Shown here one piece after another: positions 17,259 to 29,358 of a stretch of 64,000 bases of DNA (positions within the stretch are counted from its first letter, which is position 1; each line of letters opens with the position of its first letter). The translations under genes and the position numbers were made by a program. The DNA comes from an uncultured bacterium (GTDB lineage: Bacteria; Patescibacteriota; Patescibacteriia; Patescibacteriales; UBA12465). The notes beneath the pieces are model-generated. The model worked only from the letters and a program-made list of their open reading frames with translations. It was not told the origin of the DNA and searched no databases. The DNA is taken from assembly GCA_938003925.1 (NCBI GenBank), contig CALKWQ010000015.1, forward strand, positions 1,627-65,626, in the 5' to 3' direction.

Positions 17259-17826
17259 CCTGTTCTTTAAGTAATTTTATCACTTCTTTAAATGCCTTTA
17301 CCCCAGAAACCTCATCTGTAATTTCCAAAAAATAATCAGCTTCCTTTTTATTTGGGGCTTCAAAACGCTGTTTCTGCTTATTAACAAGTAAATCAATAAA
17401 GTCTTTAGAGTGATAGAGGCATTTTTGCGAACGCTGAGATGCTTTAATGCGACCTACCAATAAGGTTTCTGGCAAATTAAAATAAACCATAATTACTTTT
17501 CTGCCAGATTTTTTTGCCAAACGTCTAACTTCAGTTCTTATTTTTTTAGTTGAATTCGCACTAGTTGAAATGATTGGTAATTTTGTTTTTAAAGCTTGTC
17601 GGTAAACATCTAATACAACCATTCGTTTTAGGTGGTATCCAGAAGCTAATTCGTTAGAACCTTTAACAAAGTCCTTATCATATAAGTCTGGGTATTTATC
17701 CCTTAAGAACTCGGCTATTTCATCAGAATCTAACAGGCAAACGTGCTTCAATTTCTTGGCTATCTCCTTGCCGAAAGTAGTTTTGCCTGAGTGAGTCTTG
17801 CCAACCGTCATGATAACAAATGACAT
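17251..17826 (-). CDS. P-loop kinase (AAA_33 / polynucleotide-kinase-like fold)
   Basis: Walker A MTVGKTHSGKTTFG at the extreme N-terminus. 191 aa. Confidence 0.65.
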   Translation of the reverse strand: MSFVIMTVGKTHSGKTTFGKEIAKKLKHVCLLDSDEIAEFLRDKYPDLYDKDFVKGSNELASGYHLKRMVVLDVYRQALKTKLPIISTSANSTKKIRTEVRRLAKKSGRKVIMVYFNLPETLLVGRIKASQRSQKCLYHSKDFIDLLVNKQKQRFEAPNKKEADYFLEITDEVSGVKAFKEVIKLLKEQVV

Positions 17827-17956
17827 ATTATTAATGATATTAAATCAATATTTATATTATACCGAATAATTGATATTTTAAGAATACTAAGATAATTAGA
17901 ACAATTTATTCCTATATACTTAAAATTTATTAATTACCTTTAGGGCCCTTAACCTA

Positions 17957-17980
17957 AGAAAAAAGAGCCTTTCGGCTCAA
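17957..17980 (-). terminator. intrinsic terminator downstream of X1
   Basis: Minus strand GAGCC-GAAA-GGCTC followed by TTTTTT. Part of a 37-nt repeat shared with 25092-25128. Confidence 0.6.
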
Positions 17981-17992
17981 TTTTGATGTTTT

Positions 17993-18056
17993 GCTCGGGG
18001 TCGCGGACAAAGTTCGAACCAAAGTCATTCAATATACCCATTATAAGAGACTGGGC
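17993..18056 (-). repeat. X1: tRNA-3'-end-like repeat (family X), begins right after the stop codon of 18057..19088
   Basis: Minus strand ...TTTGGTTCGAACTTTGTCCGCGACCCCGAGCAA. 25/27 identity to the X core gctcggggtcgtggacgaagttcgaac. Confidence 0.6.
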
Positions 18057-19088
18057 TTAATTCCTAGACTCATCTTCCCTGCCGATCTCTTCACAAACTT
18101 CTAGTCCTATGTTTTTAAGTGAAGCTTCTAGATCTTTATCATTAATTACTCTAGCTTCATTGTGTTTAGTAAATATTCCTCTATTTTTAGTGGTAAAGCC
18201 ATCTTTTGGTAAATTAACAGCTGTAGATGTCTTATCGCCTAACAGAGTTAATCTTCCTCTCTTAATATATGATTTAACTAACTTAATCACTGCTTTATCA
18301 TTATAGTTCTCTAGAATTGTACTCATGGCTCTCTTAACACTGTCAAAATCACCCTTAGAACGTCTAAATTCTTCTGATCCAATACTCATAATAAAGTCTA
18401 GAATATCAGTAGCTTTCTTTTCTTTTTCACCAATCTTTTTATCTTTGTTAAAAACAATATCAGGCATATTTAAAACTGGCTCACTAACTTCACCATCTTC
18501 ATGATTCTTAAAGATAATATCTCCAGCAAGAACTTCTCCCACTCCACCGTGTTCATCATGTATTTTTCTTAGATATTTACCTGATTCAGCTAAAGCTTGA
18601 AATCTATCAAAACCTTCTACTTTATCACTATTTATTAAATCAGAACGATAAAGGTCCTGTAAGGGTAAACCTTTTAGGTAAAGACCCTTATCTTTGATCT
18701 CAATACCCTTCTCATGAATATCATAGGCATATTCCAATCCTAATCTTTTTATATTCTCAAAAATCTCTTCCTTGCCACCCCTATATCTTTTTGTGCCCGG
18801 AGCTAAAAACTTAAAAAATAGCTTTGGATGACGGCTAAAAAGCTCACTTAAATCTTTAACAACATGTTCATCATAAGTTCTCAGTATAGCATCACCAAAT
18901 TTATCTATTTTAGAAACAATTCCTTTATTATTCCAAATCAGCTTGCCATCATCTTCTATCTCCATTTTTCCACCATAAACACCCACAGTGCTTTCAAAGT
19001 CCTCAGTTGGAACTCTTGATTCATTAACTTGTTCATTAACAGAGTCTCTAATCTTATTTAACGGATTAAAATTTTCAAATTTAAACAT
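18057..19088 (-). CDS. hypothetical protein (343 aa)
   Basis: Long ORF. Weak kinase-like flavour (YLRKIHDEHGGVGEVLAGDIIF), but catalytic residues are not recognisable. Confidence 0.6.
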   Translation of the reverse strand: MFKFENFNPLNKIRDSVNEQVNESRVPTEDFESTVGVYGGKMEIEDDGKLIWNNKGIVSKIDKFGDAILRTYDEHVVKDLSELFSRHPKLFFKFLAPGTKRYRGGKEEIFENIKRLGLEYAYDIHEKGIEIKDKGLYLKGLPLQDLYRSDLINSDKVEGFDRFQALAESGKYLRKIHDEHGGVGEVLAGDIIFKNHEDGEVSEPVLNMPDIVFNKDKKIGEKEKKATDILDFIMSIGSEEFRRSKGDFDSVKRAMSTILENYNDKAVIKLVKSYIKRGRLTLLGDKTSTAVNLPKDGFTTKNRGIFTKHNEARVINDKDLEASLKNIGLEVCEEIGREDESRN

Positions 19089-19138
19089 ATTTTTATATTA
19101 TAATAACTAAATTATATCATCTTTAAAAAGAGCCAACA

Positions 19139-19172
19139 ATAAAAAAAGAGGATGTTTTTACATTCCTCTTTA
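19139..19172 (-). terminator. intrinsic terminator (minus strand) inside the 720-nt non-coding gap
   Basis: Minus strand AGAGGAATG-TAAAAA-CATCCTCT (one bulge) followed by TTTTTTT. Confidence 0.5.
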
Positions 19173-19209
19173 ATCCAAGCATATTATTTTAGGAAAAAAT
19201 CTTCAATAT

Positions 19210-19311
19210 TTATTTATACATATCTCGAGTTGCACGCTCAGTAAAATGCCAAATTAAGGGGTGAAATAGAGAAGTTATCCCTATCATCACGCCGGCAAAT
19301 AATTTGGCCAT
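19210..19311 (-). CDS. possible 33-aa hydrophobic micro-ORF
   Basis: Hand-found: MAKLFAGVMIGITSLFHPLIWHFTERATRDMYK*. Sits between the T3a module and the 19139-19172 terminator. No other support. Confidence 0.2.
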   Translation of the reverse strand: MAKLFAGVMIGITSLFHPLIWHFTERATRDMYK

Positions 19312-19411
19312 TAATTTTAATGTTCTGTGTTTTTTTCATTTCTATCTATTTTTTAAGATTAAAAAAACTATTTTTTACTAACAAAAAAGCATGCCACACG
19401 GTATATTTTTT

Positions 19412-19453
19412 GACAGAACTCGGATTCGAACTAACAATCCCCTTTATTTTCAG
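19412..19453 (-). repeat. T3a: tRNA 3'-half-like fragment (family T3)
   Basis: Minus strand AAATAAAGGGGATTGTTAGTTCGAATCCGAGTTCTGTC, followed by a decayed copy of the TTGACA-N17-TATACT module. Confidence 0.5.
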
Positions 19454-19474
19454 CTCTTTTTACACATTTGACGT

Positions 19475-19505
19475 AAACAAAAAACATGACCTAAATCATG
19501 TTTCT
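19475..19505 (-). terminator. terminator-like hairpin between X2 and T3a
   Basis: Minus strand AAACATGA-TTTAGG-TCATGTTT followed by TTTGTTT. Confidence 0.5.
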
Positions 19506-19537
19506 TTGTATTTTGGCTAATGTTTAATACCTTGTAC

Positions 19538-19630
19538 CGGTCTTAAACACCAAAACGTTGTTGGCTCGGGGTCGTGGACGAAGTTCGAACCAGTGTGGCT
19601 AAGATTAAATAAGAATTAAGGGGATCATCT
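19538..19630 (-). repeat. X2 (19564-19630) plus 32-nt linker repeat (19538-19569)
   Basis: 27-nt core gctcggggtcgtggacgaagttcgaac at 19564-19590, identical to X3. Linker cggtcttaaacaccaaaacgttgttggctcgg is 31/32 identical to 22859-22890. Confidence 0.65.
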
Positions 19631-19809
19631 TAATGCGCTAAAGTTCAACTGAGGAATTTAATTATTTTCTACATGGCCTGGATTTCTATTATCAAGTCTC
19701 CTTTTTCCAGGGAGGTGCTAAACACTTCATAAGCCAGAAACACTTATTTTAATAATATCATTTTTTTGATATAATTAAATATATATAATAATATTTAATA
19801 ATATTTAGT

Positions 19810-21585
19810 ATGATAAATTTTTACAAAAAATTATTTTTTGTTTTAATGATTTTTATAGGGCTCCATTTCGCATCATCAGCTAAAGCGTCAGAATCATTTA
19901 CCGTCCTTACTCCAGTTGATGGAGTATCAGCTTCTATTGGTGATAATTTAAATATTTCTTGGTCAACCACTATCAATCAAAGCGATATTATTATGCAGAA
20001 AATTTCTTTTCAAGATGCTTATGGTCAATCTTATACAAACGCCTTACCCGATAATCATCATTTTACCATGGTTCCCGCCGGGACCAATAACTATAATTGG
20101 AAAATTCCTTCTGACGCAAATGGACTAATGGAAATTGAGCTATATAGCAGCTATTATGATTCTGAACAAAATGTAGCTATTTATTCTAAAAAAGTAAAAA
20201 TTAATGTAAGTCAGAATGCAAGCATTACCTTCCAGGAACCTAAATCTGGAGCTATTTATAATTTTAATGACAACATTCCTGTTAACTATGAATATAGTGG
20301 CTCAGGCAATGATGCTACTTTGCCAAAGAAATTTTATTTATACCGTGGAGACGATCTAATGGAAGATGATATATATATATCTGGCTCTAATAAATTCTGG
20401 ATCCAAAAAAGTCATTTAAGCGGAGATAATTACCGAATTAAAGTCCGCATCGGCTCTACCGAAGCTTTCAGTCCTTATTTTACAATAAAATATCCGGCTA
20501 TTGATGAAGTTAATGTTAATCTAGACAATACTAAATCATACATAATCGGTAGTAATTATGATATTACCTGGAGTTCCAACTGCAAGGGCGGAGTGGCTAC
20601 GATTTGGTTTTCAACTACACCTGAAGCATCTACTGAGGGCCAAATTATCTTTCCTCTAAGCAACTTTCAGAGTGCTAAAAATTTATTGGGAACAGATGCT
20701 TTTTACACTTATCAGAACGCCTTTATGTTCAACACTCTTGCCAACACAATGTTAAGCCCTAATCTCGAAAAAATAAATTGGTCAGTTCCAGAACAAATGA
20801 GTTTTTCAAATTATTCTTTTAACAATCAACTTACTAATTCATATTACATTTTTCGTCGCCCAAACAATGAATATGTAATTGCAGAAAAATCAAAAAACCC
20901 AGTCATTCTCACTGTCACCCCTGGACAATATGTAGTCCGTGTTGATATTAAGGGTGCTAATGGCTGTTTTGCTACTGGACAGAGCCAAATAATTAATGTT
21001 GCTGCTAAAGGCTCGCAAGATGCTCCTAAAATCGTAATACCTACTAAAATCACCACACCAATCAAATCTGACGTTGATAAAAACTCTTATGATTATTCTT
21101 TTTCAAAAAAACAGGCCGGAAAAATCTTACTGCAAGTTGAGTCTCGAGGAGAAGCTTGGTATGTAAATCCTAAAGATGGACGAAGACAATACATGGCTGA
21201 TGGCGCTACAGCTTATAGTATTTTGAGAAGTTATGGCGTTGGCATTACCAATAAAGATTTAAATAAGATTCTGGTAGCCACTGATTTTATTGATAATCTT
21301 GCAAACCTAGACTCAGATAATGATGGTTATAACGATAAACAAGAATTGCAGAACGGTTATAATCCATATGCTAGCGGAAAACTAGTGATAGATAAAAGTT
21401 TTTCTAACATACATAAGGGAAAAATATTTTTACAAGTTGAGTCTCATGGCGAAGCTTGGTATATAAATCCGATTGATGGTTTAAGATATTATTTAGGGGG
21501 GGCAAGTGATGCCTTTAACGTCATGAGAAGTTTGGGGCTAGGCATTACAAATACCAACTTAAATAAAATACCAATTAACAATTAA
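19810..21585 (+). CDS. secreted repeat protein (signal peptide; Ig-like-looking N-terminal repeats; two C-terminal ~55-aa repeats flanking a DxDxDG Ca-binding-type motif)
   Basis: 591 aa. Tandem KILLQVESRGEAWYVNPKDGRRQYM...GVGITNKDLNKI and KIFLQVESHGEAWYINPIDGLRYYL...GLGITNTNLNKI, with DSDNDGYNDKQE between them. Confidence 0.8.
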   Translation: MINFYKKLFFVLMIFIGLHFASSAKASESFTVLTPVDGVSASIGDNLNISWSTTINQSDIIMQKISFQDAYGQSYTNALPDNHHFTMVPAGTNNYNWKIPSDANGLMEIELYSSYYDSEQNVAIYSKKVKINVSQNASITFQEPKSGAIYNFNDNIPVNYEYSGSGNDATLPKKFYLYRGDDLMEDDIYISGSNKFWIQKSHLSGDNYRIKVRIGSTEAFSPYFTIKYPAIDEVNVNLDNTKSYIIGSNYDITWSSNCKGGVATIWFSTTPEASTEGQIIFPLSNFQSAKNLLGTDAFYTYQNAFMFNTLANTMLSPNLEKINWSVPEQMSFSNYSFNNQLTNSYYIFRRPNNEYVIAEKSKNPVILTVTPGQYVVRVDIKGANGCFATGQSQIINVAAKGSQDAPKIVIPTKITTPIKSDVDKNSYDYSFSKKQAGKILLQVESRGEAWYVNPKDGRRQYMADGATAYSILRSYGVGITNKDLNKILVATDFIDNLANLDSDNDGYNDKQELQNGYNPYASGKLVIDKSFSNIHKGKIFLQVESHGEAWYINPIDGLRYYLGGASDAFNVMRSLGLGITNTNLNKIPINN

Positions 21586-21629
21586 ACCGTATAACGTTAC
21601 CTTTAAAATTCGGATTAATTAAATATTTA

Positions 21630-21657
21630 AAAAAACGAGCATTTCTGCTCGTTTTTA
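21630..21657. terminator. bidirectional intrinsic terminator
   Basis: aaaaACGAGCA-tttc-TGCTCGTttttt: 7-bp stem with A-run and T-run flanks. Serves the plus gene and, on the minus strand, follows module Ya. Confidence 0.7.
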
Positions 21658-21660
21658 TAT

Positions 21661-21720
21661 CAATGCTCCCGCAGTAATATTCGAACCGGAGTCGGTCTTA
21701 AAACATGAATATCCACTGCC
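21661..21720 (-). repeat. Ya: tRNA-like fragment (family Y)
   Basis: Minus strand CGGCAGTGGATATTCATGTTTTAAGACCGACTCCGGTTCGAATATTACTGCGGGAGCATTG. 6/7 acceptor-like pairing CGGCAGT/ACTGCGG, but only 39 nt lie between the arms. Confidence 0.5.
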
Positions 21721-21844
21721 GTATATAACGTTAGCTAAGTTTAAGACCTAACACTAATTACTATTAACATTTAACTTAATAACTCCTTCTTTATCCTAGC
21801 TGAACATTCTTCACAAATACTTTGGCAAAATATTTGTATTAAAA

Positions 21845-22252
21845 TTACAATATGGAGTTTAAATCAAAATCATTAAATTTTTCTGGCAAGCGGCCGACAC
21901 TTTTTAAAAAAGGAATACCGACTCGCAAAAAATTTTTTTGTATATCCATATAACCATTTTTTCTAAGATTTTCGTTGTTTTCATTTATAGTATCAATTGC
22001 CTCGCTCAAATAACTTTCGATTTCTTCATCTGACATTATTTCATATTGGGATTTACCAAAATTACCTTCTAATTCTTCATCTGGCGTACTTCCTAAAGCT
22101 TTGTGATCTTCGCTAGTTAAAGAAAAAAATCCTTGTTCTTTTGATTTCTTAGCAGCTTGTTCAAATGCAGATATCTTTTGTTTTTCAAAATTTTCCATAC
22201 TATTAAAAAAATTACATATCCCTTGGTAATACCATACCACTATACGATTCAT
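21845..22252 (-). CDS. hypothetical protein (135 aa)
   Basis: ORF. Its ATG overlaps the TGA of the upstream Nudix gene (ATGA overlap), which supports co-translation. Confidence 0.5.
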   Translation of the reverse strand: MNRIVVWYYQGICNFFNSMENFEKQKISAFEQAAKKSKEQGFFSLTSEDHKALGSTPDEELEGNFGKSQYEIMSDEEIESYLSEAIDTINENNENLRKNGYMDIQKNFLRVGIPFLKSVGRLPEKFNDFDLNSIL

Positions 22253-22689
22253 TTAGCCTGGTATATCTTTCCGGCTTTTAAATTGCGAATCATAAGTTCT
22301 GTTCCTTCGAAAATTTTATCAGGCAAATCATCTATGCTAAACCACCTCCATTCCCCCCATTTATCTGGCTCTTCAACATTTGGCACCCCGCCTTTATAAA
22401 CACCTTCAGTTCCTATGTTTAAATAGTGTTTACCATCTGTTTCTATGTATCTCATTTCATCTGCAACTGATATTAATTTGAACTCATCAATATCCAAGCC
22501 AGTTTCTTCTTTAACTTCTCGCTTTGCTGTTTCAAATATAGTCTCGCCGAACTCCAGATGACCCCCAGGAAATGACCATTCTCCAGCTCCATGAGATCCT
22601 TTTCTTAACCCTAATAAAACTTCTCCCTTATCATTTTTTATCATTACCCCGATGCCAACTTTAGGATATTTTTTTTCTAAATTATTCAT
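22249..22689 (-). CDS. NUDIX hydrolase (MutT-like)
   Basis: Nudix box GGHLEFGETIFETAKREVKEETGL. 146 aa. Confidence 0.8.
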   Translation of the reverse strand: MNNLEKKYPKVGIGVMIKNDKGEVLLGLRKGSHGAGEWSFPGGHLEFGETIFETAKREVKEETGLDIDEFKLISVADEMRYIETDGKHYLNIGTEGVYKGGVPNVEEPDKWGEWRWFSIDDLPDKIFEGTELMIRNLKAGKIYQAK

Positions 22690-22709
22690 ATTTATTATCT
22701 GATGCTTTA

Positions 22710-22718
22710 ATTATAGCA
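22710..22718 (-). promoter_or_regulatory. extended -10 element (TGcTATAAT) for 22249..22689
   Basis: Minus strand TATGCTATAAT, 20 nt upstream of the ATG. Confidence 0.4.
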
Positions 22719-22731
22719 TAAATATTAATTG

Positions 22732-22772
22732 GACAGGAGTGGGATTCGAACCAAAAACCCCTTTATTTACAG
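22732..22772 (-). repeat. T3b: tRNA 3'-half-like fragment (family T3)
   Basis: Minus strand AAATAAAGGGGTTTTTGGTTCGAATCCCACTCCTGTCCAA: canonical-looking T-loop and 3' acceptor strand, with a decayed 5' T-stem. Confidence 0.55.
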
Positions 22773-22791
22773 ACCTTTCCGCTTATTTGAC

Positions 22792-22826
22792 TAAAACAAA
22801 AGAACTCAGCACAAACTGAGTTCTTT
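22792..22826 (-). terminator. intrinsic terminator between X5 and T3b
   Basis: Minus strand AGAACTCAG-TTTGTG-CTGAGTTCT (perfect 9 bp) followed by TTTGTTTT. Confidence 0.65.
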
Positions 22827-22858
22827 CGATTTTTTTGGTAATATTAGACCTCTCCTGT

Positions 22859-22929
22859 CGGTCTTAAACACCAAAATGTTGTTGGCTCGGAGACTGGGAT
22901 AAAATTGGAACTTTTTTGTAATAAATTAC
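22859..22929 (-). repeat. X5 (degenerate family X copy, 22884-22929) plus 32-nt linker repeat (22859-22890)
   Basis: ggctcggagactgggataaaattggaac aligns to the X core with many A/T substitutions. Starts right after the stop codon of 22930..23277. Confidence 0.5.
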
Positions 22930-23277
22930 TTAATTTTCTCTAATAATTGTCGGTTTAAAAAATCTTTCCTGGAATTCAACCAAAGACAGAATTTGCTCAT
23001 CAGAATAACTAACTCCATCTGGCACAACTATTAATTTATCATCGTCATCATCTAATCTATGAATTATGGCAATACATTTTCCAGTAAATTCTTCTTTTGG
23101 TTCAAATACTCCTAAAATATAAGCATCAACTCCTTCACCATCAGGAGCTAATTCATTTTCAATATAACCGTAATTAAAAGAATAATAGATATCGTATTTA
23201 GGGTGCTTAGACCCCAAAGCTCTATCTACTTTAACATTAACAATTTTATTTAAAAATTTAGTGGCATAATTATTCAT
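22930..23277 (-). CDS. small inorganic-pyrophosphatase-like protein (family I PPase fold, truncated type)
   Basis: 115 aa. DGEGVDAYILG...IIHRLDDDDDKLIVVP resembles the DGDPLD / acidic metal-binding cluster of soluble PPases. Assigned from recall. Confidence 0.55.
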   Translation of the reverse strand: MNNYATKFLNKIVNVKVDRALGSKHPKYDIYYSFNYGYIENELAPDGEGVDAYILGVFEPKEEFTGKCIAIIHRLDDDDDKLIVVPDGVSYSDEQILSLVEFQERFFKPTIIREN

Positions 23278-23283
23278 GAAATA

Positions 23284-23292
23284 ATTATAACA
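23284..23292 (-). promoter_or_regulatory. extended -10 (TGtTATAAT) only 6 nt from the ATG of 22930..23277; possible leaderless mRNA
   Basis: Minus strand TGTTATAAT-TATTTC-ATG. Confidence 0.35.
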
Positions 23293-23319
23293 TATAGTTC
23301 TAAAGCTATAAACTCCCTA

Positions 23320-23350
23320 CTAAAAATAGCCCCTAAAATAGGGCTATTTA
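23320..23350 (-). terminator. intrinsic terminator downstream of X3
   Basis: Minus strand ATAGCCC-(8-nt loop)-GGGCTAT followed by TTTTTAG. Confidence 0.55.
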
Positions 23351-23355
23351 AAAGT

Positions 23356-23421
23356 GCTCGGGGTCGTGGACGAAGTTCGAACTAATGTGACTAATATTTA
23401 AGAAAAACTAGAAGTATAATC
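23356..23421 (-). repeat. X3: tRNA-3'-end-like repeat (family X), begins right after the stop codon of 23422..23964
   Basis: 27-nt core at 23356-23382, identical to X2. Flank ...actaatgtgactaatatttaag aligns with X2/X4. Confidence 0.65.
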
Positions 23422-23964
23422 CTACTTAGAATCTTGAAAATCAATAAGATACTTATAAATGCCTTCAAAACCCTCTAAACTAGGGGCCCAATCATTAGAA
23501 TCATTTTTAATTCCCTCTACTATATCTTGCGCTGGCAACCACTTCACTTCTTGAACCTCATTATCAGCAAATTTTAAACTACTAATATCCTCTAATCCTG
23601 GATAATAATAAACATAAGTAAATTCATTGTTTGGCAAATCATCTCTTTTTAAAATTGGCCCGGGAATAAATTTATTAATATCAGCCCTTAATCCAATTTC
23701 TTCTTCTAACTCAGATATAAGTGTTTGTTTTACATCCTGACCTGATTTTAAATGGCCACCAAAACGTGTGTCCCACATGTTTGGGCACAAATCTTTTGCT
23801 TTAGACCTGAGATGAACGAGAAAATAATATTCATTATTCTTCTTCATAAAATAATAAATATGAACCGTTCTGTGCCAAGAGCCGTCTTTGTGAATTAGAG
23901 ATCTCAATTTCTTTTCTCCCGTAATATTATTATTTTCATCAACAATATCTAAATATTCTTCCAT
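23422..23964 (-). CDS. NUDIX hydrolase (IDI/ADP-ribose-pyrophosphatase-like subgroup)
   Basis: Nudix box GGHLKSGQDVKQTLISELEEEIGL. 180 aa. Confidence 0.75.
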   Translation of the reverse strand: MEEYLDIVDENNNITGEKKLRSLIHKDGSWHRTVHIYYFMKKNNEYYFLVHLRSKAKDLCPNMWDTRFGGHLKSGQDVKQTLISELEEEIGLRADINKFIPGPILKRDDLPNNEFTYVYYYPGLEDISSLKFADNEVQEVKWLPAQDIVEGIKNDSNDWAPSLEGFEGIYKYLIDFQDSK

Positions 23965-23986
23965 AGTAATTAAGATAAGAGCTTTT

Positions 23987-24913
23987 TTAATGTTCTAGTT
24001 CCTCTTTAATTAGTGGAACGATTTGCTTGCGCATGATTAAATTTGGCCTTTTGGCAACAGCCTCATTAAATTTAATATTTAAAACTTTTTCCAATAGTTT
24101 CTGTGTTTTTAGATCTGGACTGATAAAATAATTACATTCTAACTCTAACTCGATAGTATTTTGAAAAATATAATCTAGTCCCATATCTTGCCTTATTTTC
24201 TCAAGTACCTTAATAATTTCTTCAATTCTTTCTTTGATAAGCATCTCAGCTCCGACAATTTCAATTTGAGCAATGCCAACTTTTTTATCAGCAAAAGTAA
24301 ACCACGCAAAATCGCCTTCAATTCTTTCACTCAACTTGCTTCCTGATAAATCTGACTTGGCCATAAAAAGATCTTTCCAGAAATTATCTGGCAAGAGTGC
24401 TATTTTATCAAGATACTCTACGGCCTTTTTATCTCTGTCTGTTGTAACTCCACCCTTAAAATTAAGAGTATTGGATATAATGGCTCCACAAAGTAAAATT
24501 GCTGACTCTTTGGAAATATTAATATTATTTTCAATAAACTTTTCTGCTATTAAAGTAGCAGCTGAGCCGACTAATTCAATTTGCACCCTAGCATTAGGAA
24601 ATTTATCAGCTTCATTAATTTTTCTGTGATCAATAATCTCAACTACTTTTTCCGGCGCAATATTTCCCTCAAGACCATTTAAATCGCTGGCGTCAACCAG
24701 GACGACCTCATCAAAATTATCAGCATTAATTATTTTCTGGGGATATGGAATATTATAACGATCTAAAATATATTTAGCTTCGTCGTGCGGCTCTCCGATA
24801 ATACCAACAATAGATTCTCTGCCCGTCTTCTGTAAAAATTCACCATAGGCAAAGGCTCCAGCCACCCCATCTAAGTCTGGATTTACATAACATGTGATAA
24901 GTGTTGGTTTCAT
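23987..24913 (-). CDS. DHH-family phosphoesterase, family II (Mn-dependent) inorganic pyrophosphatase-like
   Basis: NPDLDGVAGAFAY, VLVDASD, IIDHRK and the C-terminal LFMAKSDLSG...VGIAQIE segment resemble PpaC/DHHA2 proteins. Assigned from recall. Confidence 0.7.
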   Translation of the reverse strand: MKPTLITCYVNPDLDGVAGAFAYGEFLQKTGRESIVGIIGEPHDEAKYILDRYNIPYPQKIINADNFDEVVLVDASDLNGLEGNIAPEKVVEIIDHRKINEADKFPNARVQIELVGSAATLIAEKFIENNINISKESAILLCGAIISNTLNFKGGVTTDRDKKAVEYLDKIALLPDNFWKDLFMAKSDLSGSKLSERIEGDFAWFTFADKKVGIAQIEIVGAEMLIKERIEEIIKVLEKIRQDMGLDYIFQNTIELELECNYFISPDLKTQKLLEKVLNIKFNEAVAKRPNLIMRKQIVPLIKEELEH

Positions 24914-24921
24914 ATATCACT

Positions 24922-24927
24922 ATTATA
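24922..24927 (-). promoter_or_regulatory. -10 box TATAAT 8 nt from the ATG of 23987..24913; possible leaderless mRNA
   Basis: Minus strand TAGGTTATAAT-AGTGATAT-ATG. Confidence 0.35.
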
Positions 24928-24957
24928 ACCTAAAAATTAAAATATAAAAACCAAAAA

Positions 24958-25001
24958 CACAGGACGTGGATTCGAACCAATATTGACCAATGAAATCAAG
25001 G
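24958..25001 (-). repeat. T3c: tRNA 3'-half-like fragment (family T3)
   Basis: Minus strand TTGGTCAATATTGGTTCGAATCCACGTCCTGTG. Confidence 0.5.
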
Positions 25002-25029
25002 TTTTTATATAAATTACTGTAGATTATCT

Positions 25030-25078
25030 AAAATATCCCAAAAATATTCGAACCGCTTTGGAACTTAAAATGTATCTA
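25030..25078 (-). repeat. Yb: tRNA-like fragment (family Y)
   Basis: Minus strand TAGATACATTTTAAGTTCCAAAGCGGTTCGAATATTTTTGGGAT aligns with Ya (GGATA..CAT.TTTTAAG....CGGTTCGAATATT). Confidence 0.5.
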
Positions 25079-25086
25079 ATATTAAA

Positions 25087-25111
25087 ACAAAAAAAGAGCC
25101 TTTCGGCTCAA
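25087..25111 (-). terminator. intrinsic terminator downstream of X6
   Basis: Minus strand GAGCC-GAAA-GGCTC followed by TTTTTTT. Same hairpin as at 17957-17980. Confidence 0.6.
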
Positions 25112-25123
25112 TTTTGTTGTTTT

Positions 25124-25183
25124 GCTCGCCTGGAGAGACAGCTTCCGAACTTGGATGGCTAATAATAAATAATATTTTGACCC
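25124..25183 (-). repeat. X6: degenerate family X copy, begins right after the stop codon of 25184..26869
   Basis: gctcgcctggagagacagcttccgaacttggatggctaataat aligns to X1/X2 (gctcg...ttcgaac...tggcta) with substitutions. Confidence 0.45.
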
Positions 25184-26869
25184 CTAATTCTTCATTCGCC
25201 TAACTTCCAAATCTACTAAATTATCTAGATTAAAATTTTCTCTTTCCGTTTCACATTCTTTTCTCTCTTTATCCGGATAGTTACTGCAGTTGGGATAACG
25301 GGCTACAAATTGCACCAAATAAACATTATTTTCTATTACTGTTGTATAAGCATATTGCGTATAGACAGATCCCGCCGCGCCCTCGCTAGAAGCACCTATG
25401 CAATATTTCTGGCCGTTTATTTCCTTTTTACTTATTCGAAGAGGTAAGCTAGATTCTAGAGGGGTTTCATTACACTCTATTTCACCATTTTCTATCCAAG
25501 ATTCTAACTTGGGGTATTCTTCGGCTTTAAATATGTTCGAACTATAATTTTGAAATGAAATATAACTAGCCTTAAAACTATCTGGTAAATTTGATTCTAT
25601 ATTCCCTTCTTCGGTATATAAATATTTAACCCCTATCACCTTGATTGTGCCTAAAGTTTTATAAATATCGCTTTCTTCGTTAACCAGCTCGCCGCTAATT
25701 TCTATTTTTTGCCCCTTTCTTATCTTATTAACTATATTATTTTTATCATCACTGGGCGCTTGCAAGCGATAATAATCACTATTACTATTCTTAATACCAA
25801 ATACACACAAATCATTATGCGATATATTCTCATCTTTTAGAGGCAGGCAAACAAACTCTCCAGAAACAACAAATAAATTATCATCTCCGCTCATCCCCTT
25901 ATATTCGCTTAAAAAATGAAAAGACTCCGATATTTTTTGATCAAAGCAATTATCATAAAAGAACCCCAGGCCAATCTGACATTCTTGTCCCGTACTCCAA
26001 AAAGCGACTCTTTTTTGAACCGGACTATAAATTATATAATTTGTATAATTGACCGGACATAAAGTCGACCCCAAATCTTTACCATCTCCATCTATTTCTA
26101 CGCGATAATTTCCACTGAATTGAGTCGGTATTTTGGCCTTATAACTACAACCAGAGCCAAGTTTTTGTTTAATAATTTTGTCTAAATCATCTTCATTTTC
26201 AACATTTAAAATCACGAAATGCCAAGACAAGGGATACTTAGAAGTATTATCATATTCAGGAATAAAAGTATTTTCTGTCTTCACCGATTCTCCGGTTTGC
26301 CAATCAAATGATATATCGTATTTTTGATGGAGATAAAAATTGTTATTTTTACTTAATACTTGGTTAGGGAGTAAAACGTCTAAGCCTTCCGGTAAATTAG
26401 TCCAAAGTTTACTATCAATAGACAATGACGGGTAACGAAACATAAAACCATATTCTTCATTTTTATAGTCAATCCATTCAATCGATTCTCTGGCATTTTT
26501 GATTATAATAAGACTCCAAATAGAGTAAAAACGAGAATAATGGCGATGCGTAGCCAATAGCGCATTATCATTTTTATCTTTAAAAAAATAACCAGAACCC
26601 ATCTGGCTGATAAATTCGTAGCCTTGATCTTTCAATAAACTAACTAAAACTTCTTGACCATTTTTGCCTTTAGTTAAATATTTATCTCCACCTATGTCTA
26701 ATTTAACAATTTTATTGCTAGCGAAATTTAATTGTATTATCCCTTTTAGTAGAGGGGTCGGGTTGCCTTCCTGAAAAATTACTGGCCGATATAACAAAAA
26801 AGCTAAAATAAAAATAATAATTAAGCCGCCAAAAAAAATTGATACTACCTTTTTATTTATTTTTAGCAT
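25184..26869 (-). CDS. hypothetical membrane-anchored protein (561 aa)
   Basis: Long ORF with N-terminal TM (VVSIFFGGLIIIFILAFLL). No family recognised. Confidence 0.6.
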   Translation of the reverse strand: MLKINKKVVSIFFGGLIIIFILAFLLYRPVIFQEGNPTPLLKGIIQLNFASNKIVKLDIGGDKYLTKGKNGQEVLVSLLKDQGYEFISQMGSGYFFKDKNDNALLATHRHYSRFYSIWSLIIIKNARESIEWIDYKNEEYGFMFRYPSLSIDSKLWTNLPEGLDVLLPNQVLSKNNNFYLHQKYDISFDWQTGESVKTENTFIPEYDNTSKYPLSWHFVILNVENEDDLDKIIKQKLGSGCSYKAKIPTQFSGNYRVEIDGDGKDLGSTLCPVNYTNYIIYSPVQKRVAFWSTGQECQIGLGFFYDNCFDQKISESFHFLSEYKGMSGDDNLFVVSGEFVCLPLKDENISHNDLCVFGIKNSNSDYYRLQAPSDDKNNIVNKIRKGQKIEISGELVNEESDIYKTLGTIKVIGVKYLYTEEGNIESNLPDSFKASYISFQNYSSNIFKAEEYPKLESWIENGEIECNETPLESSLPLRISKKEINGQKYCIGASSEGAAGSVYTQYAYTTVIENNVYLVQFVARYPNCSNYPDKERKECETERENFNLDNLVDLEVRRMKN

Positions 26870-27233
26870 AGTTTTTTATTAATAAATTAGCACCTCTAAT
26901 AACAATTCCTACCAGTCCGCCAAAAATGATTATGGCAGCAAAGAATAGAGTCGTATATAAAGCTTCTGGAATATAAAAATTTTCGCCAGAGTTGTAGACA
27001 ATTATTTGCCAGATAACTACGAATACAAAACTAGTTATAATTGAGCCAATAATCAGTTTGGGCAAAAAACAATAACTTTTATGTTCATTTTGCACCAAAA
27101 CCATTAAAACTCCGGCGACCAAAGGCAATAATATTATTTGCCAACCCCAAAAAAATGTAAACCAATCTGGTTTAAGGGTAAACATAAAGCTAACTATTAC
27201 TGTCAGCGCAGAAATAAAATAAATTTTTTTCAT
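26853..27233 (-). CDS. hypothetical 4-TM membrane protein
   Basis: 126-aa hydrophobic ORF. Overlaps the downstream gene by 17 nt. Confidence 0.5.
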   Translation of the reverse strand: MKKIYFISALTVIVSFMFTLKPDWFTFFWGWQIILLPLVAGVLMVLVQNEHKSYCFLPKLIIGSIITSFVFVVIWQIIVYNSGENFYIPEALYTTLFFAAIIIFGGLVGIVIRGANLLIKNYAKNK

Positions 27234-27297
27234 ATAATAATTATATCCTATAACTGTTACTTTAAAAACAGCGATACAAATTATACTTTTTTACTTA

Positions 27298-27326
27298 AAT
27301 AAAAAATAGGCTATTATTAGCCTATT
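27298..27326 (-). terminator. intrinsic terminator of 27326..28201
   Basis: Minus strand AATAGGCTA-ATAA-TAGCCTATT followed by TTTTTATTT. The stem abuts the stop codon. Confidence 0.6.
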
Positions 27327-28201
27327 TATTTTTTTACGTTCTCCTGCAAAATCTTATCTCTTAGCTTATCTCCCCCTATTTCATAGGCGGCTTTAACTAC
27401 AGATTCTTGGGTATTATCAACATTTTTAATAATCCGCAATACCTCGGGCATTTCTTGTTTTACAAGCTCAAGGAAATCATTGGATCCATCGAAATAAGAC
27501 TTAAAAAAGGGCCAGATGAATTTTTCACTTTTGTTGAGAAAAACCTCCTCAATTAAATGCACATGCAACGCATAGGCAAATTCATAAAAAATCCGACCCT
27601 TCTCTTCTTTACTAAATAAATTATCAAAAGCTCCGACTCTTTCCATTTCTCGTAATACAACTTTAGACCAAAGATCTGTGGCGGCTTCATTTAATCCAAA
27701 GCATGGACTATTTCCTTTTTCGCTTAAAGAATGAAAGCCTAGTTGATAAAAATCAATAGATCTACATTCCTTATTTTCTTTAACAGAAACAGAATAAAAT
27801 GAAAAAAGGTGGGAGATTTCATGAGCAATATCAATTACAAAATGACACCTATCTTTATTCTTCCTAAGGAAAATGTAACCAAACGAGCAGTTGCCGCCCT
27901 CATTTTCTGACATTTTAACATTTTTCTCATAAACTTCGTCATCTAAAATAATGATTTGATTATCAAATATTCTCATTGGCTTAAAACCATTAACTTTAAG
28001 AAGATTATTTCCCGCCTTTATAGCCGCAGCAATAATATGCTTCTCAAAGGTGGTCCAAATGAAAGACGAGACTTGGTGCACATTCATAACACGAGCAATT
28101 AAAAAATCATTTTTTGTTTCCTCGCTTACGGGCCCAATAAACTTTGGGGCATAGTTCCATTTTTCCTTCCAATAACCATTTCCAATATCTTTCGCACTCA
28201 T
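27326..28201 (-). CDS. hypothetical protein with HExxH zinc-metalloprotease-type motif
   Basis: 291 aa. VIDIAHEISHLF contains HEISH. No further family assignment. Confidence 0.55.
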   Translation of the reverse strand: MSAKDIGNGYWKEKWNYAPKFIGPVSEETKNDFLIARVMNVHQVSSFIWTTFEKHIIAAAIKAGNNLLKVNGFKPMRIFDNQIIILDDEVYEKNVKMSENEGGNCSFGYIFLRKNKDRCHFVIDIAHEISHLFSFYSVSVKENKECRSIDFYQLGFHSLSEKGNSPCFGLNEAATDLWSKVVLREMERVGAFDNLFSKEEKGRIFYEFAYALHVHLIEEVFLNKSEKFIWPFFKSYFDGSNDFLELVKQEMPEVLRIIKNVDNTQESVVKAAYEIGGDKLRDKILQENVKK

Positions 28202-28246
28202 TTGTACAAATTTTTAAGGTTCAACAATCATTTTAATTATCAAAAA

Positions 28247-28275
28247 AGTATACTATACGTATGCCTTTTTGTCAA
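28247..28275 (-). promoter_or_regulatory. sigma70-type promoter TTGACA-N17-TATACT for 27326..28201
   Basis: Minus strand TTGACA (28270-28275), 17-nt spacer, TATACT (28247-28252). Lies directly after X4. Homologous to 29255-29283. Confidence 0.55.
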
Positions 28276-28276
28276 T

Positions 28277-28342
28277 GCTCGGGGTCGTGGACGAAGTTAG
28301 AACTAGTGTGGCTAAAATTAAGGAAGAATTCAAGGGTTAATC
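28277..28342 (-). repeat. X4: tRNA-3'-end-like repeat (family X)
   Basis: Core at 28277-28303 is 26/27 identical to X2/X3. Its 3' end CCCCGAGCA-TTGACAAAA matches the tRNA-Gln 3' end plus flank. Confidence 0.65.
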
Positions 28343-28395
28343 TTTTATTTATATCTAAGTTACTAGAAAAATAACTATATATCCCCATTTCTCTA

Positions 28396-28428
28396 AAGAA
28401 AAAGGGCGCTCATGTTTGAACACCCCTC
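28396..28428 (-). terminator. weak terminator-like hairpin after 28484..28849
   Basis: Minus strand AGGGGTG...CGCCCT (6 bp with bulge and wobble) followed by TTTTTCTTT. Confidence 0.35.
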
Positions 28429-28483
28429 TAAATAATATAAGTTCATTTTTACCTTGTGTCGCCCCAGAAACCATCATTAACCT

Positions 28484-28849
28484 TTATCTTACCGACATCA
28501 GGCATTCTACACTGGAATAGAAGCCAGACATGACGTATGGTCGAATAATACACTCAACCAAAGCAGCTTTGGGAAAAGTTTGATGTACCTCATCAACCAG
28601 GTCAAGCACTAATCGTCTTTTAACTTTTTCGGTTCTTTCCGGTTTTTCAGTTAAGCCATCGATAAAAACAATGATTTCTTCGCCCAAACCTTTAGTCATA
28701 AGGTTTTGAGGAAAAAATATTGAAACCTGTTCTCTTTTAATTCTCAAATCTGCAATATCAGCAGCTCTTTGACACATAAGATCGGAAAAAATTTCCAATG
28801 TTTCTTTATCCGTTTCCGTTGGAATTCCATAAACAATCAAGATCGGCAT
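28484..28849 (-). CDS. hypothetical protein; possible tautomerase-superfamily fold (N-terminal Met-Pro)
   Basis: 121 aa. Begins MPILIVYGIP and has two beta-alpha-beta-like halves. Strong SD (GGAGGG) upstream. The family call is speculative. Confidence 0.5.
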   Translation of the reverse strand: MPILIVYGIPTETDKETLEIFSDLMCQRAADIADLRIKREQVSIFFPQNLMTKGLGEEIIVFIDGLTEKPERTEKVKRRLVLDLVDEVHQTFPKAALVECIIRPYVMSGFYSSVECLMSVR

Positions 28850-29207: not shown

Positions 29208-29247
29208 TTTATGAATTTTTAAAGGTTCGACAATACAATTTTAACTA

Positions 29248-29283
29248 TCAAAAAAGTATACCACATAGGTATACTTTTGTCAA
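29248..29283 (-). promoter_or_regulatory. overlapping tRNA-Gln terminator hairpin and TTGACA-N17-TATACT promoter
   Basis: Minus strand TTGACA(29278-83)-AAAGTATACCTATGTGG-TATACT(29255-60)-TTTTTT. AGTATACC/GGTATACT also forms a perfect 8-bp hairpin followed by T6. Confidence 0.6.
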
Positions 29284-29287
29284 CTTG

Positions 29288-29358
29288 CTCGGGGACAGGG
29301 ATTCGAACCCCGATAAACAGGACCAGAACCTGTTGTCCTACCATTAGACGATCCCCGA
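29288..29358 (-). tRNA. tRNA-Gln (anticodon CUG)
   Basis: Hand-folded cloverleaf. Acceptor UCGGGGA/UCCCCGA (U1-A72), D arm GUCU..GGAC, anticodon arm ACAGG-UUCUGGU-CCUGU, T arm CGGGG-UUCGAAU-CCCUG, discriminator G. No encoded CCA. Confidence 0.9.

What the first reader, a model, noticed from the sequence alone, without database searches (positions are those of the whole stretch)
17993..28342. Family X: a ~65-nt repeat with a near-identical 27-nt core, starting right after stop codons and ending like the tRNA-Gln 3' end
Seen:
- The core gctcggggtcgtggacgaagttcgaac (plus strand) is identical at 19564-19590 and 23356-23382.
- It is 26/27 identical at 28277-28303 and 25/27 at 17993-18019.
- Degenerate copies lie at 22884-22929 and 25124-25183.
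- On the minus strand it reads ..AGCCACACTGGTTCGAACTTCGTCCACGACCCCGAGC(A/C)A.
- This shares GGTTCGAA and CCCCGAGCA with the real tRNA-Gln end (GGTTCGAATCCCTGTCCCCGAGCAA), but has about 6 extra nt and no 5' acceptor partner.
- In four copies (X1, X3, X5, X6) the element begins at the nucleotide after the stop codon of the upstream minus-strand gene.
- X1, X3, X5 and X6 are each followed by a hairpin plus U-tract, so they would be transcribed as 3'UTRs.

Inference: a 27-nt core conserved inside very AT-rich, otherwise diverged intergenic DNA suggests selection or recent spread. Possible roles are a recombination site, an RNA processing or stability element, or a protein or RNase P/Z recognition site.
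Basis: seen in the sequence. Interest (0 to 1): 0.7.

Follow-up and report, generated by a model that had tools for sequence, protein, structure and literature searches.

The report
Recombination sites ending mobile gene cassettes
The repeat is real and marks the tail end of small mobile gene cassettes stacked one after another behind a glutamine tRNA gene in tiny 'CPR' bacteria; it is most likely a docking site for a serine recombinase, not an RNA-processing signal.

Summary
Family X is real: four copies of the 27-nt core against 0 expected by chance, all on the tRNA-Gln strand and all inside a low-GC stretch (17992-29286).

X does not fold, does not code and is not tRNA-like.

It is widespread. 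Full-length copies occur in about 31 Patescibacteria species genomes. In seven of them X again lies downstream of a tRNA-Gln in the same orientation.

Sequence similarity between genomes always breaks at ...CCCCGAGC(A)|, the 3' end shared by X and tRNA-Gln. At least 11 families of downstream "head" modules follow either tRNA-Gln or X. One cassette (DHH plus NUDIX genes, 1768 nt) is 99.8% identical in a 33%-GC genome, bounded at both ends by these sites.

Relatives carry large serine recombinase (LSR) genes abutting the tRNA-Gln 3' end. An intact LSR of that family is fused to a full-length X at the same junction. The GTTCGAA box lies 5 bp further from the junction in X than in the tRNA, as published for attP versus attB half-sites.

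Verdict: X is an attP-type half-site that marks cassette ends in an SCC-like or integron-like array. No recombinase is in this window, and the enzyme assignment is inferred.

The parts
29287..29358 (-). tRNA-Gln(CUG). Its 3' end ...GGTTCGAATCCCTGTCCCCGAGCA (ending at 29286) is the primary attachment site (attB-type left half-site) from which the cassette array starts.
   Evidence: ARAGORN and Rfam at 59 bits. The LysRS-tRNA-Gln pairing is conserved in 54 of 80 related loci, while everything downstream varies.
28276..28342 (-). X6, a full-length X. It is the tail of cassette C1 (29285-28276, carrying the 104-aa and 121-aa genes).
   Evidence: 65 bits. C1 is 80% identical to L031 1402-2417, where it sits between two X copies.
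25123..25188 (-). X5, a variant subfamily of X (...TTAGCCATCCAAGTTCGGAAGCTGTCTCTCCAGGCGAGCA). It is the tail of cassette C2 (28275-25123, carrying the 291-, 126- and 561-aa genes) and overlaps the stop codon of the 561-aa gene.
   Evidence: It has the same box-to-GAGC spacing as X. It is about 77% identical to the copy in L013, whereas the following cassette is 99.8% identical.
23355..23422 (-). X3, a full-length X. It is the tail of cassette C3 (25122-23355: head, DHH phosphoesterase gene, NUDIX gene). Its first base is the last base of the NUDIX stop codon.
   Evidence: C3 has 3 differences in 1768 nt against L013/L127, and identity ends exactly after GAGCA.
22884..22929 (-). X4, a short X4-type site (GTTCCAATTTTATCCCAGTCTCCGAGCC). 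It is the tail of cassette C4 (23354-22884, carrying a 115-aa pyrophosphatase-like gene).
   Evidence: The same type ends a 7.5-kb LSR element and three small cassettes in L082, and is also present in L083 and L033.
21664..21687 (-). Z1, a tRNA-type site (GGTTCGAATATTACTGCGGGAGCA) with tRNA-like 18-nt spacing. It is the probable tail of cassette C5 (22883-21664, carrying a 146-aa NUDIX gene and a 135-aa gene).
   Evidence: It is followed by head family v, which follows tRNA-Gln in L096 and follows X in L008, L013, L023, L031 and L045. Its GGGAGCA end resembles the tRNA-Asn end that serves as a junction in L006.
19563..19629 (-). X2, a full-length X with no intact gene directly upstream. It is the tail of cassette C6 (21663-19563, whose 591-aa gene is on the + strand).
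   Evidence: 70 bits. It is followed by head family iii, which directly follows tRNA-Gln in L052, L075, L081, L084 and L097.
17992..18023 (-). X1, a short-form X (the 3' 32 nt only, starting at the GGTTCGAAC box). It is the distal end of the array and the tail of cassette C7 (19562-17992, carrying a 343-aa gene).
   Evidence: profile positions 37-68. 13 of 60 copies across genomes are this short form. It is followed by a terminator head that also follows tRNA-Gln in L056 and L090.
29208..29285 (-). Head of cassette C1: TTGACA-17-TATACT overlapping a hairpin plus T-run, starting right after the tRNA-Gln 3' end. A paralogous head lies at 28202-28275, after X6.
   Evidence: The same head family follows X in L014, L020 and L031 and follows tRNA-Gln in L091.
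24914..25122 (-). Head of cassette C3 (family i): A-tract, terminator hairpin at 25096-25109, then two GGTTCGAA boxes (25054, 24978).
   Evidence: Head family i follows tRNA-Gln (L005, L013, L095), tRNA-Asn (L006) and seven X copies.

Best explanation
**What X is.** X is the conserved 3' terminal site of small mobile gene cassettes. Each cassette consists of:
- a 'head' (A-tract, terminator hairpin and often a promoter);
- one to three cargo genes;
- an X tail.
Seven such cassettes are stacked head-to-tail behind the 3' end of tRNA-Gln in this Patescibacteria genome.

**Shown.**
- Recombination has joined heads to either tRNA-Gln or X at one fixed point inside or next to the shared ...CCCCGAGC(A).
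- Whole cassettes bounded by these points move between genomes.

**Inferred mechanism.**
- The sites are used by large serine recombinases (LSRs) that target the tRNA-Gln 3' end.
- The tRNA end is an attB-type half-site, with the GTTCGAA box 18 nt from GAGC.
- X is the attP-type half-site, with the same box 5 bp further out.
- In the LSR-bearing parent element, the X sequence is also the antisense of the last 15-22 codons of the recombinase gene. That would explain its length of about 66 nt.
- It would also explain why X starts at the stop codon of a convergent cargo gene.

**Status of the window's array.** Its cassettes have no recombinase of their own. They are either satellites moved in trans or decayed remains of LSR elements.
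For: **1. Real and local.** Four core copies against 0 expected. All lie in one orientation, in the 32.6%-GC stretch next to tRNA-Gln, in a genome with a 43.9%-GC backbone.

**2. Recurrent association.**
- X occurs in 38 loci of about 31 Patescibacteria species genomes.
- tRNA-Gln lies upstream in the same orientation in L004, L005, L009, L010, L012, L013 and L024.

**3. Fixed junction.**
- In every pair examined, similarity begins or ends at ...GAGC(A)|.
- At least 11 head families occur both after tRNA-Gln and after X.

**4. Mobility.**
- Cassette C3 has 3 differences in 1768 nt against GCA_964435515.1.
- In that genome it sits behind a different tRNA-Gln (UUG, after FtsEX), and the backbone is 32.9% GC.
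- The X5 site preceding it differs at 15 of 66 positions.

**5. Strain-level turnover.** L095 and L096 are 99.86% identical over 11,580 nt and diverge exactly after the tRNA-Gln GAGCA.

**6. Recombinase link.**
- 17 LSR or LSR-remnant ORFs were found. All 16 that lie in a locus with a tRNA-Gln lie downstream of it, and none upstream.
- 12 loci have one abutting the tRNA 3' end on the opposite strand.
- Seven full-length ORFs were scanned and all carry Resolvase and Recombinase domains; six also match Zn_ribbon_recom.

**7. Element ends.** In L082 a 7.5-kb LSR element ends with an X4-type site. Three small cassettes follow, each ending in the same site type.

**8. Direct LSR-X fusion.**
- In L134 and L135 an intact 514-aa LSR, 82-94% identical to the tRNA-Gln-abutting one, is fused to a full-length X.
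- The junction is ...CCGAGCA|CTGAAGAAAAATCGC.
- Its ORF overlaps X in antisense by 65 nt. L026 has the same arrangement with a remnant.

**9. Spacing.** The box-to-GAGC distance is 23 in 49 of 56 X copies and 18 in 63 of 63 tRNA-Gln genes. This matches the 5-bp shift of the zinc-ribbon-domain motif between attP and attB half-sites (PMC3783163).
Against: - No LSR, or any other recombinase, is encoded in the 64-kb window. None recurs among 147 ORFs near X in other genomes.
- The heads, which would be the right half-sites, are diverse. They show no inverted-repeat symmetry with X and share only an A-tract.
- Canonical LSRs recombine only attP with attB. Serial stacking requires either relaxed partner choice or a site defined mainly by its left half. 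That has not been shown.
- L134 is a 3.5-kb fragment that could not be shown to be circular. Its X-LSR joint may therefore be an attP, or an element inserted next to an X.
- The exact crossover position cannot be resolved within the shared 9 nt.
- Sharp boundaries at the end of a conserved element are also partly expected under homologous recombination.
Confidence: 0.65

Rival explanations
1. X is a recombination site, but for a different enzyme. Candidates are a tyrosine recombinase (integron-like or Xer-like, with CCCCGAGC as a 7-8-bp overlap region) or an HUH-type single-strand transposase that cuts 3' of GAGCA.
For: - The shared identity block CCCCGAGC(A) has the length of a tyrosine-recombinase overlap region.
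- Only the left side of the site is conserved, and every head starts with a hairpin at a fixed distance. That recalls single-strand or asymmetric systems.
- No recombinase lies in cis in most arrays.
Against: - XerD-like proteins were found only in five loci that lack X.
- X has no attC-like palindrome and no fold.
- The only recombinases physically joined to the sites are LSRs.
- The 5-bp box shift is a specific LSR signature.
Confidence: 0.12
2. There is no dedicated site-specific recombination. X is simply a conserved intergenic repeat. Cassettes are swapped by homologous recombination between X, tRNA-Gln and head repeats after natural transformation.
For: - X (66 nt with a near-identical core of 27-45 nt) and the heads (150-230 nt at 75-97% identity) are long enough to anchor RecA-dependent exchange.
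- Divergence that starts exactly where a conserved tRNA ends, as in L095/L096 and L092/L093, is also what flanking-homology replacement would produce.
- X-less relatives show replacements with breakpoints at ordinary terminators.
Against: - Identical or near-identical cassettes start at the first base after the core even though their left neighbours share only 7-10 nt. Examples are tRNA-Gln versus X in L007/L020, X4-type versus tRNA-Gln in L013/L033, and the diverged X5 copies next to the 99.8%-identical C3.
- This model does not explain what keeps X conserved across about 31 species, nor the constant +5-nt spacing.
Confidence: 0.12
3. X acts mainly as RNA: a 3'-UTR element mimicking the tRNA-Gln T-arm and acceptor end, recognised by RNase P, RNase Z or another tRNA-binding factor, or stabilising the mRNA.
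For: - X is transcribed-strand sense, often directly follows a stop codon, and precedes a terminator.
- It contains a T-loop-like GGTTCGAA and the tRNA-Gln 3' end.
Against: - No consensus structure on either strand in 37 copies.
- No acceptor partner, and no tRNA or Rfam hit at E up to 5.
- X is absent from 52 of 54 related tRNA-Gln loci.
- 13 of 60 copies are the 3' 30 nt only.
- Conservation decays smoothly away from the junction, as expected for a protein-DNA site.
Confidence: 0.05

Closest known systems
SCC elements and composite SCC islands of staphylococci (Ccr large serine recombinases integrating at the 3' end of rlmH/orfX). This comparison rests on my own knowledge; I did not check it in the literature here.
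   Same: - Large serine recombinases.
- Integration at the 3' end of one conserved gene.
- Tandem accretion of several elements, each delimited by a direct repeat of the attachment sequence.
- Recombinase-less 'pseudo' elements are included.
- Cargo is accessory genes.
   Different: - The target is a tRNA gene, not a protein gene.
- The units are much smaller (0.5-3.2 kb, 1-3 genes).
- The repeated site is a 66-nt sequence of which only about 9 nt equal the target.
- The host is Patescibacteria.
- No ccr-like pair of genes is present, and no recombinase at all lies in this array.
Tycheposons and tRNA-anchored islands of Prochlorococcus (bioRxiv 10.1101/2020.12.28.424599)
   Same: - Islands grow from the 3' end of a specific tRNA.
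- The newest material lies next to the tRNA.
- Partial-tRNA attachment repeats are present.
- Cargo cassettes are present.
- A minority of the elements use large serine recombinases.
   Different: - Tycheposons are defined by carrying their own integrase plus hallmark replication genes. The window's cassettes carry neither.
- X is not a plain partial tRNA copy. It has a 5-nt longer spacing and a 36-nt non-tRNA extension.
Integron cassette arrays (attI/attC)
   Same: - One-directional array of small cassettes.
- Each cassette ends in a family-related site that often touches the stop codon.
- There is one privileged entry site.
- The cargo is diverse.
- Sites are shuffled between genomes.
   Different: - No IntI tyrosine recombinase is present.
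- X has a conserved sequence and no attC-type imperfect palindrome or fold.
- The cassettes bring their own terminator and promoter heads.
Serine-integrase attP/attB architecture (Listeria integrase model, PMC3783163)
   Same: - The same recognition box is present in both partners.
- It is shifted by 5 bp, further from the centre in the element-borne site.
- If the crossover lies in the CCCC run, the box occupies positions 15-22 (X) and 10-17 (tRNA). The published positions are 16-24 and 11-19.
   Different: - The right half-sites are not related to the left ones.
- The arrays imply recombination with hybrid sites, which canonical serine integrases refuse without a directionality factor.

Membership tests
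Large-serine-recombinase attachment site (attP-type half-site) | Physical linkage of the site to an LSR gene at the element end | tested here: met
   Met in related loci only. An intact 514-aa LSR is fused to a full-length X in L134 and L135, with a remnant in L026. LSRs abut tRNA-Gln in 12 loci. Not met in the window itself.
Large-serine-recombinase attachment site (attP-type half-site) | Recognition motif shifted 5 bp outward in attP relative to attB | tested here: met
   The GTTCGAA-to-GAGC distance is 23 nt in 49 of 56 X copies and 18 nt in 63 of 63 tRNA-Gln genes. The published model is in PMC3783163.
Large-serine-recombinase attachment site (attP-type half-site) | Two imperfectly symmetric half-sites around a central dinucleotide | tested here: not met
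   The heads share only an A-tract at positions 1-11 followed by a hairpin. No reverse-complement copy of the box is present. The central dinucleotide cannot be located within the shared CCCCGAGCA.
Large-serine-recombinase attachment site (attP-type half-site) | Recombination catalysed by the cognate enzyme | not testable with these tools
   This needs an in vitro or in vivo assay.
Integron attC site | Imperfect palindrome (R''-L''...L'-R') folding as single-stranded DNA | tested here: not met
   The alignment fold of 37 copies gives about -0.7 kcal/mol on either strand, with no conserved pairing.
Integron attC site | Adjacent intI tyrosine recombinase and attI | tested here: not met
   No tyrosine recombinase is in the window or near X. 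The array starts at a tRNA gene.
Integron attC site | Co-oriented array with one site per cassette, close to the stop codon | tested here: met
   Seven sites lie in one orientation over 11.3 kb. 12 of 36 full-length copies abut a long ORF's stop codon.
tRNA or tRNA-like structure | Cloverleaf, or at least acceptor and T-arm pairing | tested here: not met
   ARAGORN and the Rfam tRNA model find only the true tRNA-Gln. There is no partner for the CCCCGAG strand and no conserved T-stem.
Tycheposon | Element carries its own site-specific integrase and hallmark replication genes | tested here: not met
   None of the seven window cassettes encodes one.
Tycheposon | Island seeded at a tRNA 3' end and flanked by attachment repeats | tested here: met
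MITE / IS terminal repeat | Terminal inverted repeats and target-site duplication | tested here: not met
   All copies are direct and in a single orientation. No inverted partner was found.
Protein-coding remnant | Codon periodicity or an excess of synonymous change in some frame | tested here: not met
   Entropy is equal at the three codon positions in all frames, and synonymous changes are far fewer than nonsynonymous ones in 32 copies. Only next to an intact LSR is the antisense frame open through all of X.

The most novel reading that the evidence does not exclude
Patescibacteria may possess an integron-like gene-capture platform run by large serine recombinases.
- The tRNA-Gln 3' end acts as the permanent entry site, because it is an attB-type left half-site whatever follows it.
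- Any DNA circle carrying an X acts as a cassette, because X is an attP-type left half-site whatever follows it.
- Insertion and excision would then be the same B x P reaction and would need no directionality factor.
- Recombinase-less cassettes of 0.5-3 kb would circulate between species.
Probability: 0.3. Interest if true: 0.8.

Novelty: new variant of a known kind. Interest (0 to 1): 0.62.

Why it matters
- **A route for gene exchange in CPR bacteria.** These bacteria have tiny genomes and few recognised mobile elements, and how they exchange genes is poorly understood. This would be a concrete, sequence-defined route. The evidence is a conserved 66-nt site, a fixed junction at a tRNA end and near-identical cassettes in genomes that differ by 11 points of GC.
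- **A search handle.** The site could be used to catalogue the mobile gene pool of these organisms. The cargo seen here includes NUDIX hydrolases, phosphatases, Fic proteins, restriction-modification enzymes, reverse transcriptases and membrane proteins.
- **A natural test of the half-site model.** It offers many natural examples of the proposed 5-bp rule for attP versus attB in serine integrases.
- **A possible engineering tool.** It points to integrases whose specificity may rest on one half-site, which is of interest for genome engineering.

Tried and rejected
- **Coding element on the X strand.** Three window copies looked as if they carried synonymous changes (peptide ...SSNFVHDPE). I rejected this because most copies have an in-frame TAA, and 32 copies show no codon periodicity in any of the six frames.
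- **tRNA pseudogene or split tRNA.** No fold was found and no tRNA or Rfam model matches.
- **Integron attC.** X has no palindrome and there is no IntI.
- **Recombinase in cis.**
  - Pfam scans of 47 window and locus proteins, plus 147 ORFs around X, found nothing recurrent.
  - Only a local search seeded with Mu Gin revealed the LSRs.
  - Lambda Int found nothing. XerD found only five loci, none of which has X.
- **Known mobile DNA.** X is absent from the plasmid and phage collections. The two IMG/VR matches are chance hits in high-GC coding sequence.
- **Circularity of the 3.5-kb contig L134.** No terminal overlap was found.
- **Other repeat families in X-less relatives.** I found only a true partial tRNA-Gln repeat in L054, and ordinary breakpoints in L092/L094.
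- **Literature.** Six full-text searches found no description of these arrays in Patescibacteria (paper read). The library is incomplete.

Full report
**1.

- The 27-nt core occurs four times with at most 2 mismatches, at 17993, 19564, 23356 and 28277. None is expected by chance.
- A profile built from copies in other genomes defines three full-length copies of about 67 nt: 19563-19629, 23355-23422 and 28276-28342.
- It also defines a copy consisting of the 3' 32 nt only (17992-18023) and a diverged copy (25146-25188). It finds nothing else in the window.
- All copies are on the minus strand, like tRNA-Gln(CUG) at 29287-29358.
- All lie in a stretch of 32.6% GC, while the backbone beyond the tRNA is 43.9% GC.
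- The stop-codon claim is true for X3, X4 and X5, doubtful for X1 and false for X2 and X6. Across genomes it holds for 12 of 36 full-length copies.

**2. What X is not**

- Not tRNA-like. ARAGORN and Rfam (E up to 5) see only the true tRNA.
- Not a structured RNA. 37 copies from about 31 genomes give no consensus fold on either strand, about -0.7 kcal/mol.
- Not coding. An apparent coding pattern in three window copies disappears with more copies. There is no codon periodicity and no synonymous excess in any of the six frames.
- Conservation is highest at the 3' end and decays smoothly over about 40 nt. That is the profile of a protein-DNA site.

**3. X is widespread and tied to tRNA-Gln**

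- A 21-nt pattern found 43 loci among 185,579 species genomes. 38 are Patescibacteria MAGs carrying the whole element. Many of these are TPA records labelled 'uncultured Gammaproteobacteria', which I take to be mislabelled. The other 5 are chance hits in high-GC coding sequence.
- In seven loci a tRNA-Gln (CUG or UUG) lies 0.8-4.3 kb upstream of X in the same orientation.
- 80 metagenomic relatives were retrieved through LysRS. 54 keep LysRS-tRNA-Gln, and the GT2-DUF192-Wzy-GreA-LysRS side is syntenic in most of those that extend far enough upstream. Nothing downstream of the tRNA is conserved.
- Only two of these relatives carry X.
- X therefore belongs to a variable, insertion-prone region and not to the core genome.

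**4. The junction is fixed**

Every tRNA-Gln ends ...TCCCCGAGC(A), and X ends ...GACCCCGAGC(A).

| Comparison | Result |
|---|---|
| Window cassette 25122-23355 vs L013 | 3 differences in 1768 nt; identity stops exactly after the GAGCA of X3; the preceding X5 copies differ at 15 of 66 positions, the last 7 nt before the junction |
| L013 vs L033 | the same Na/Ca-exchanger cassette starts after tRNA-Gln in one and after an X4-type site in the other; similarity begins at CCGAGCA |
| L007 vs L020 | a partial tRNA-Gln end and an X precede 439 identical nt |
| L095 vs L096 | 99.86% identical over 11.6 kb; they diverge right after the tRNA's GAGCA |

- Clustering the 90 nt after 119 such sites gives at least 11 head families found after both tRNA-Gln and X. 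One of them is also found after a tRNA-Asn ending GGGAGCA.
- The heads share a fixed layout: A-tract at positions 1-11, stem at 13-15 and 23-26, T-run at 29-33. Some also carry a near-consensus promoter.

The unit that moves is therefore head + gene(s) + X. The window holds seven of them (see parts).

**5. The cassettes cross species**

- GCA_964435515.1 (L013/L127) has a 32.9%-GC backbone, and its array sits behind tRNA-Gln(UUG) after ftsEX.
- The window's backbone is 43.9% GC, and its array sits behind tRNA-Gln(CUG) after lysS.
- The two nevertheless share the DHH+NUDIX cassette at 99.8%.
- The window's array has the GC content of the low-GC organisms.

**6. The enzyme lead**

- No recombinase is encoded in the window. 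None recurs near X.
- A local search seeded with Mu Gin, followed by a family profile, found 17 large-serine-recombinase ORFs or remnants. All 16 that lie in a locus with a tRNA-Gln are downstream of it.
- In 12 loci the ORF abuts the tRNA 3' end on the opposite strand and reads into the tRNA, giving the tail ...SDFSSMLGDRDSNP....
- Pfam finds Resolvase and Recombinase domains in all seven ORFs scanned, and Zn_ribbon_recom in six of them.
- The family is large, with 1701 database proteins at E of at most 1e-30. Many of them have antisense-tRNA tails.
- In L082 a 7.5-kb element with this LSR ends in an X4-type site. Three small cassettes follow, each ending in the same site.
- L083, L048, L072 and others hold truncated LSRs next to the tRNA, so the recombinase decays in place.
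- Two database proteins end ...MLGVVDEVRTSVAKIKEEL.V, which is the antisense of X. Their contigs (L134, L135) show an intact LSR joined to a full-length X at ...CCGAGCA|(C/T)TGAAGAAAAATCGC. That is the same joint tRNA-Gln makes in L082.
- In L134 the ORF ends 3 nt from the X 5' end.

**7. Spacing**

- The GTTCGAA box starts 23 nt before GAGC in 49 of 56 X copies and 18 nt before it in 63 of 63 tRNA-Gln genes. The X4- and X5-types have the X spacing. Z1 has the tRNA spacing.
- For serine integrases, the zinc-ribbon-domain motif lies 5 bp nearer the centre in attB than in attP (PMC3783163).
- If the crossover lies in the CCCC run, the box positions also agree with that model to within 1 nt. This last point is inference.

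**8. Synthesis and limits**

- I regard as shown: the repeat, its spread, the fixed junction, cassette mobility, and the physical LSR-X and LSR-tRNA-Gln joints.
- I regard as inferred: that LSRs move the recombinase-less cassettes, and how stacking occurs. Canonical LSRs do not recombine hybrid sites, and the heads do not look like symmetric half-sites.
- Two readings remain open. In one, satellites are mobilised in trans by a recombinase with relaxed partner choice, as I recall for staphylococcal Ccr. In the other, the array is the decayed remains of successive LSR elements.
- Homologous recombination probably contributes to shuffling. It cannot, however, make joints between partners that share only 7-10 nt.

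**9. Comparison and novelty**

- The system works like SCC composite islands and tycheposon islands, and looks like an integron array. It fails the defining tests for integron attC, tRNA-like RNA, MITE and tycheposon (see membership table).
- Six searches of the held literature, and a reading of the one paper on Patescibacteria genomic islands, found no description of it.
- I rate it a new variant of a known kind. It is of real interest for CPR biology and for serine-integrase site rules, but it is not a new principle.

Noticed in passing
window 19409-19444, 22729-22764, 24945-24980 (minus strand); also L127 7528, 8848, 9937, 11704: A second repeat ('Y'), GGTTCGAATCC(A/C)..TCCTGT.., sits inside the cassette heads. 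It lies about 160 nt after the junction and 40-60 nt before the cargo gene. In L127 it equals that genome's tRNA-Gln T-loop and T-stem (GGTTCGAATCCATGTCC) but lacks CCGAGCA. Its role is unknown; an accessory binding site or part of a promoter are possibilities.
   Followed up: partly
window 25040-25070 (minus strand) and head family i in many loci: Head family i holds a further box, AAGTTCCAAAGCGGTTCGAATATTTTTGG, about 85 nt after the junction. In the window, all 7 occurrences of GGTTCGAA are on the minus strand, intergenic and within 18020-29309.
   Followed up: partly
L082 3943-5469, L059, L083, L086, L088 and database proteins P0001-P0120: The recombinase reading frame runs across the attachment site into the antisense of the tRNA gene. 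Integration therefore changes the last 10-22 residues of the enzyme. Across the family, many proteins end in ...R(D/G)SNP..., which is the antisense translation of a tRNA T-loop, so the family appears to target tRNA 3' ends in general.
   Followed up: partly
window 21099-21191 and 21399-21491 (+ strand, inside the 591-aa gene 19810-21585): There is an internal 300-nt tandem duplication (75% identity) in the only plus-strand gene of the array. Homologues of this secreted-looking protein are the most frequent cargo near X, occurring in 8 loci.
   Followed up: no
window 4400-17900: - Low GC continues beyond the last X (0.31-0.37 at 8000-12600 and 16000-18000).
- Genes 8153-10251 have homologues in the tRNA-Gln-downstream regions of L060, L064, L105 and L107.
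- The Na/Ca exchanger at 5198-6151 is 80% identical in protein to the first cassette gene of L013.
- The island may therefore be older and larger than the X array, with IleRS (12827-15763) embedded in it.
   Followed up: partly
L054 11999-12086 and 12644-12731: An X-less relative has a plain partial tRNA-Gln 3' repeat (ATCCCTATCCC(C/T)GAGCA plus head, 90% identical) flanking a 645-nt insert. L007 has a similar partial tRNA-Gln end in place of X. True tRNA fragments and X are therefore alternative cassette tails.
   Followed up: partly
L134 2289-3326 and L006 about 535-1498: A reverse-transcriptase gene (RVT_1, 345 aa) is the cargo of an X-tailed cassette in two genomes. Other cargo near X includes Fic/DOC proteins, DpnII and N6/N4 methyltransferase genes, histidine phosphatases and NUDIX genes.
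   Followed up: no
L006 4785-4857: A tRNA-Asn(GUU) ending ...CTGGGAGCA is followed by head family i at the same position as in tRNA-Gln. An X lies 4.2 kb downstream. The system is therefore not strictly limited to tRNA-Gln. The window's Z1 site (21664-21687) ends in GGGAGCA as well.
   Followed up: partly
Genome contigs record titles of L004, L006, L007, L011, L013 and others: 22 of the X-bearing MAGs are deposited as 'uncultured Gammaproteobacteria bacterium' (TPA assemblies). Their gene content, about 33% GC and shared cassettes place them with Patescibacteria, so the labels look wrong.
   Followed up: no
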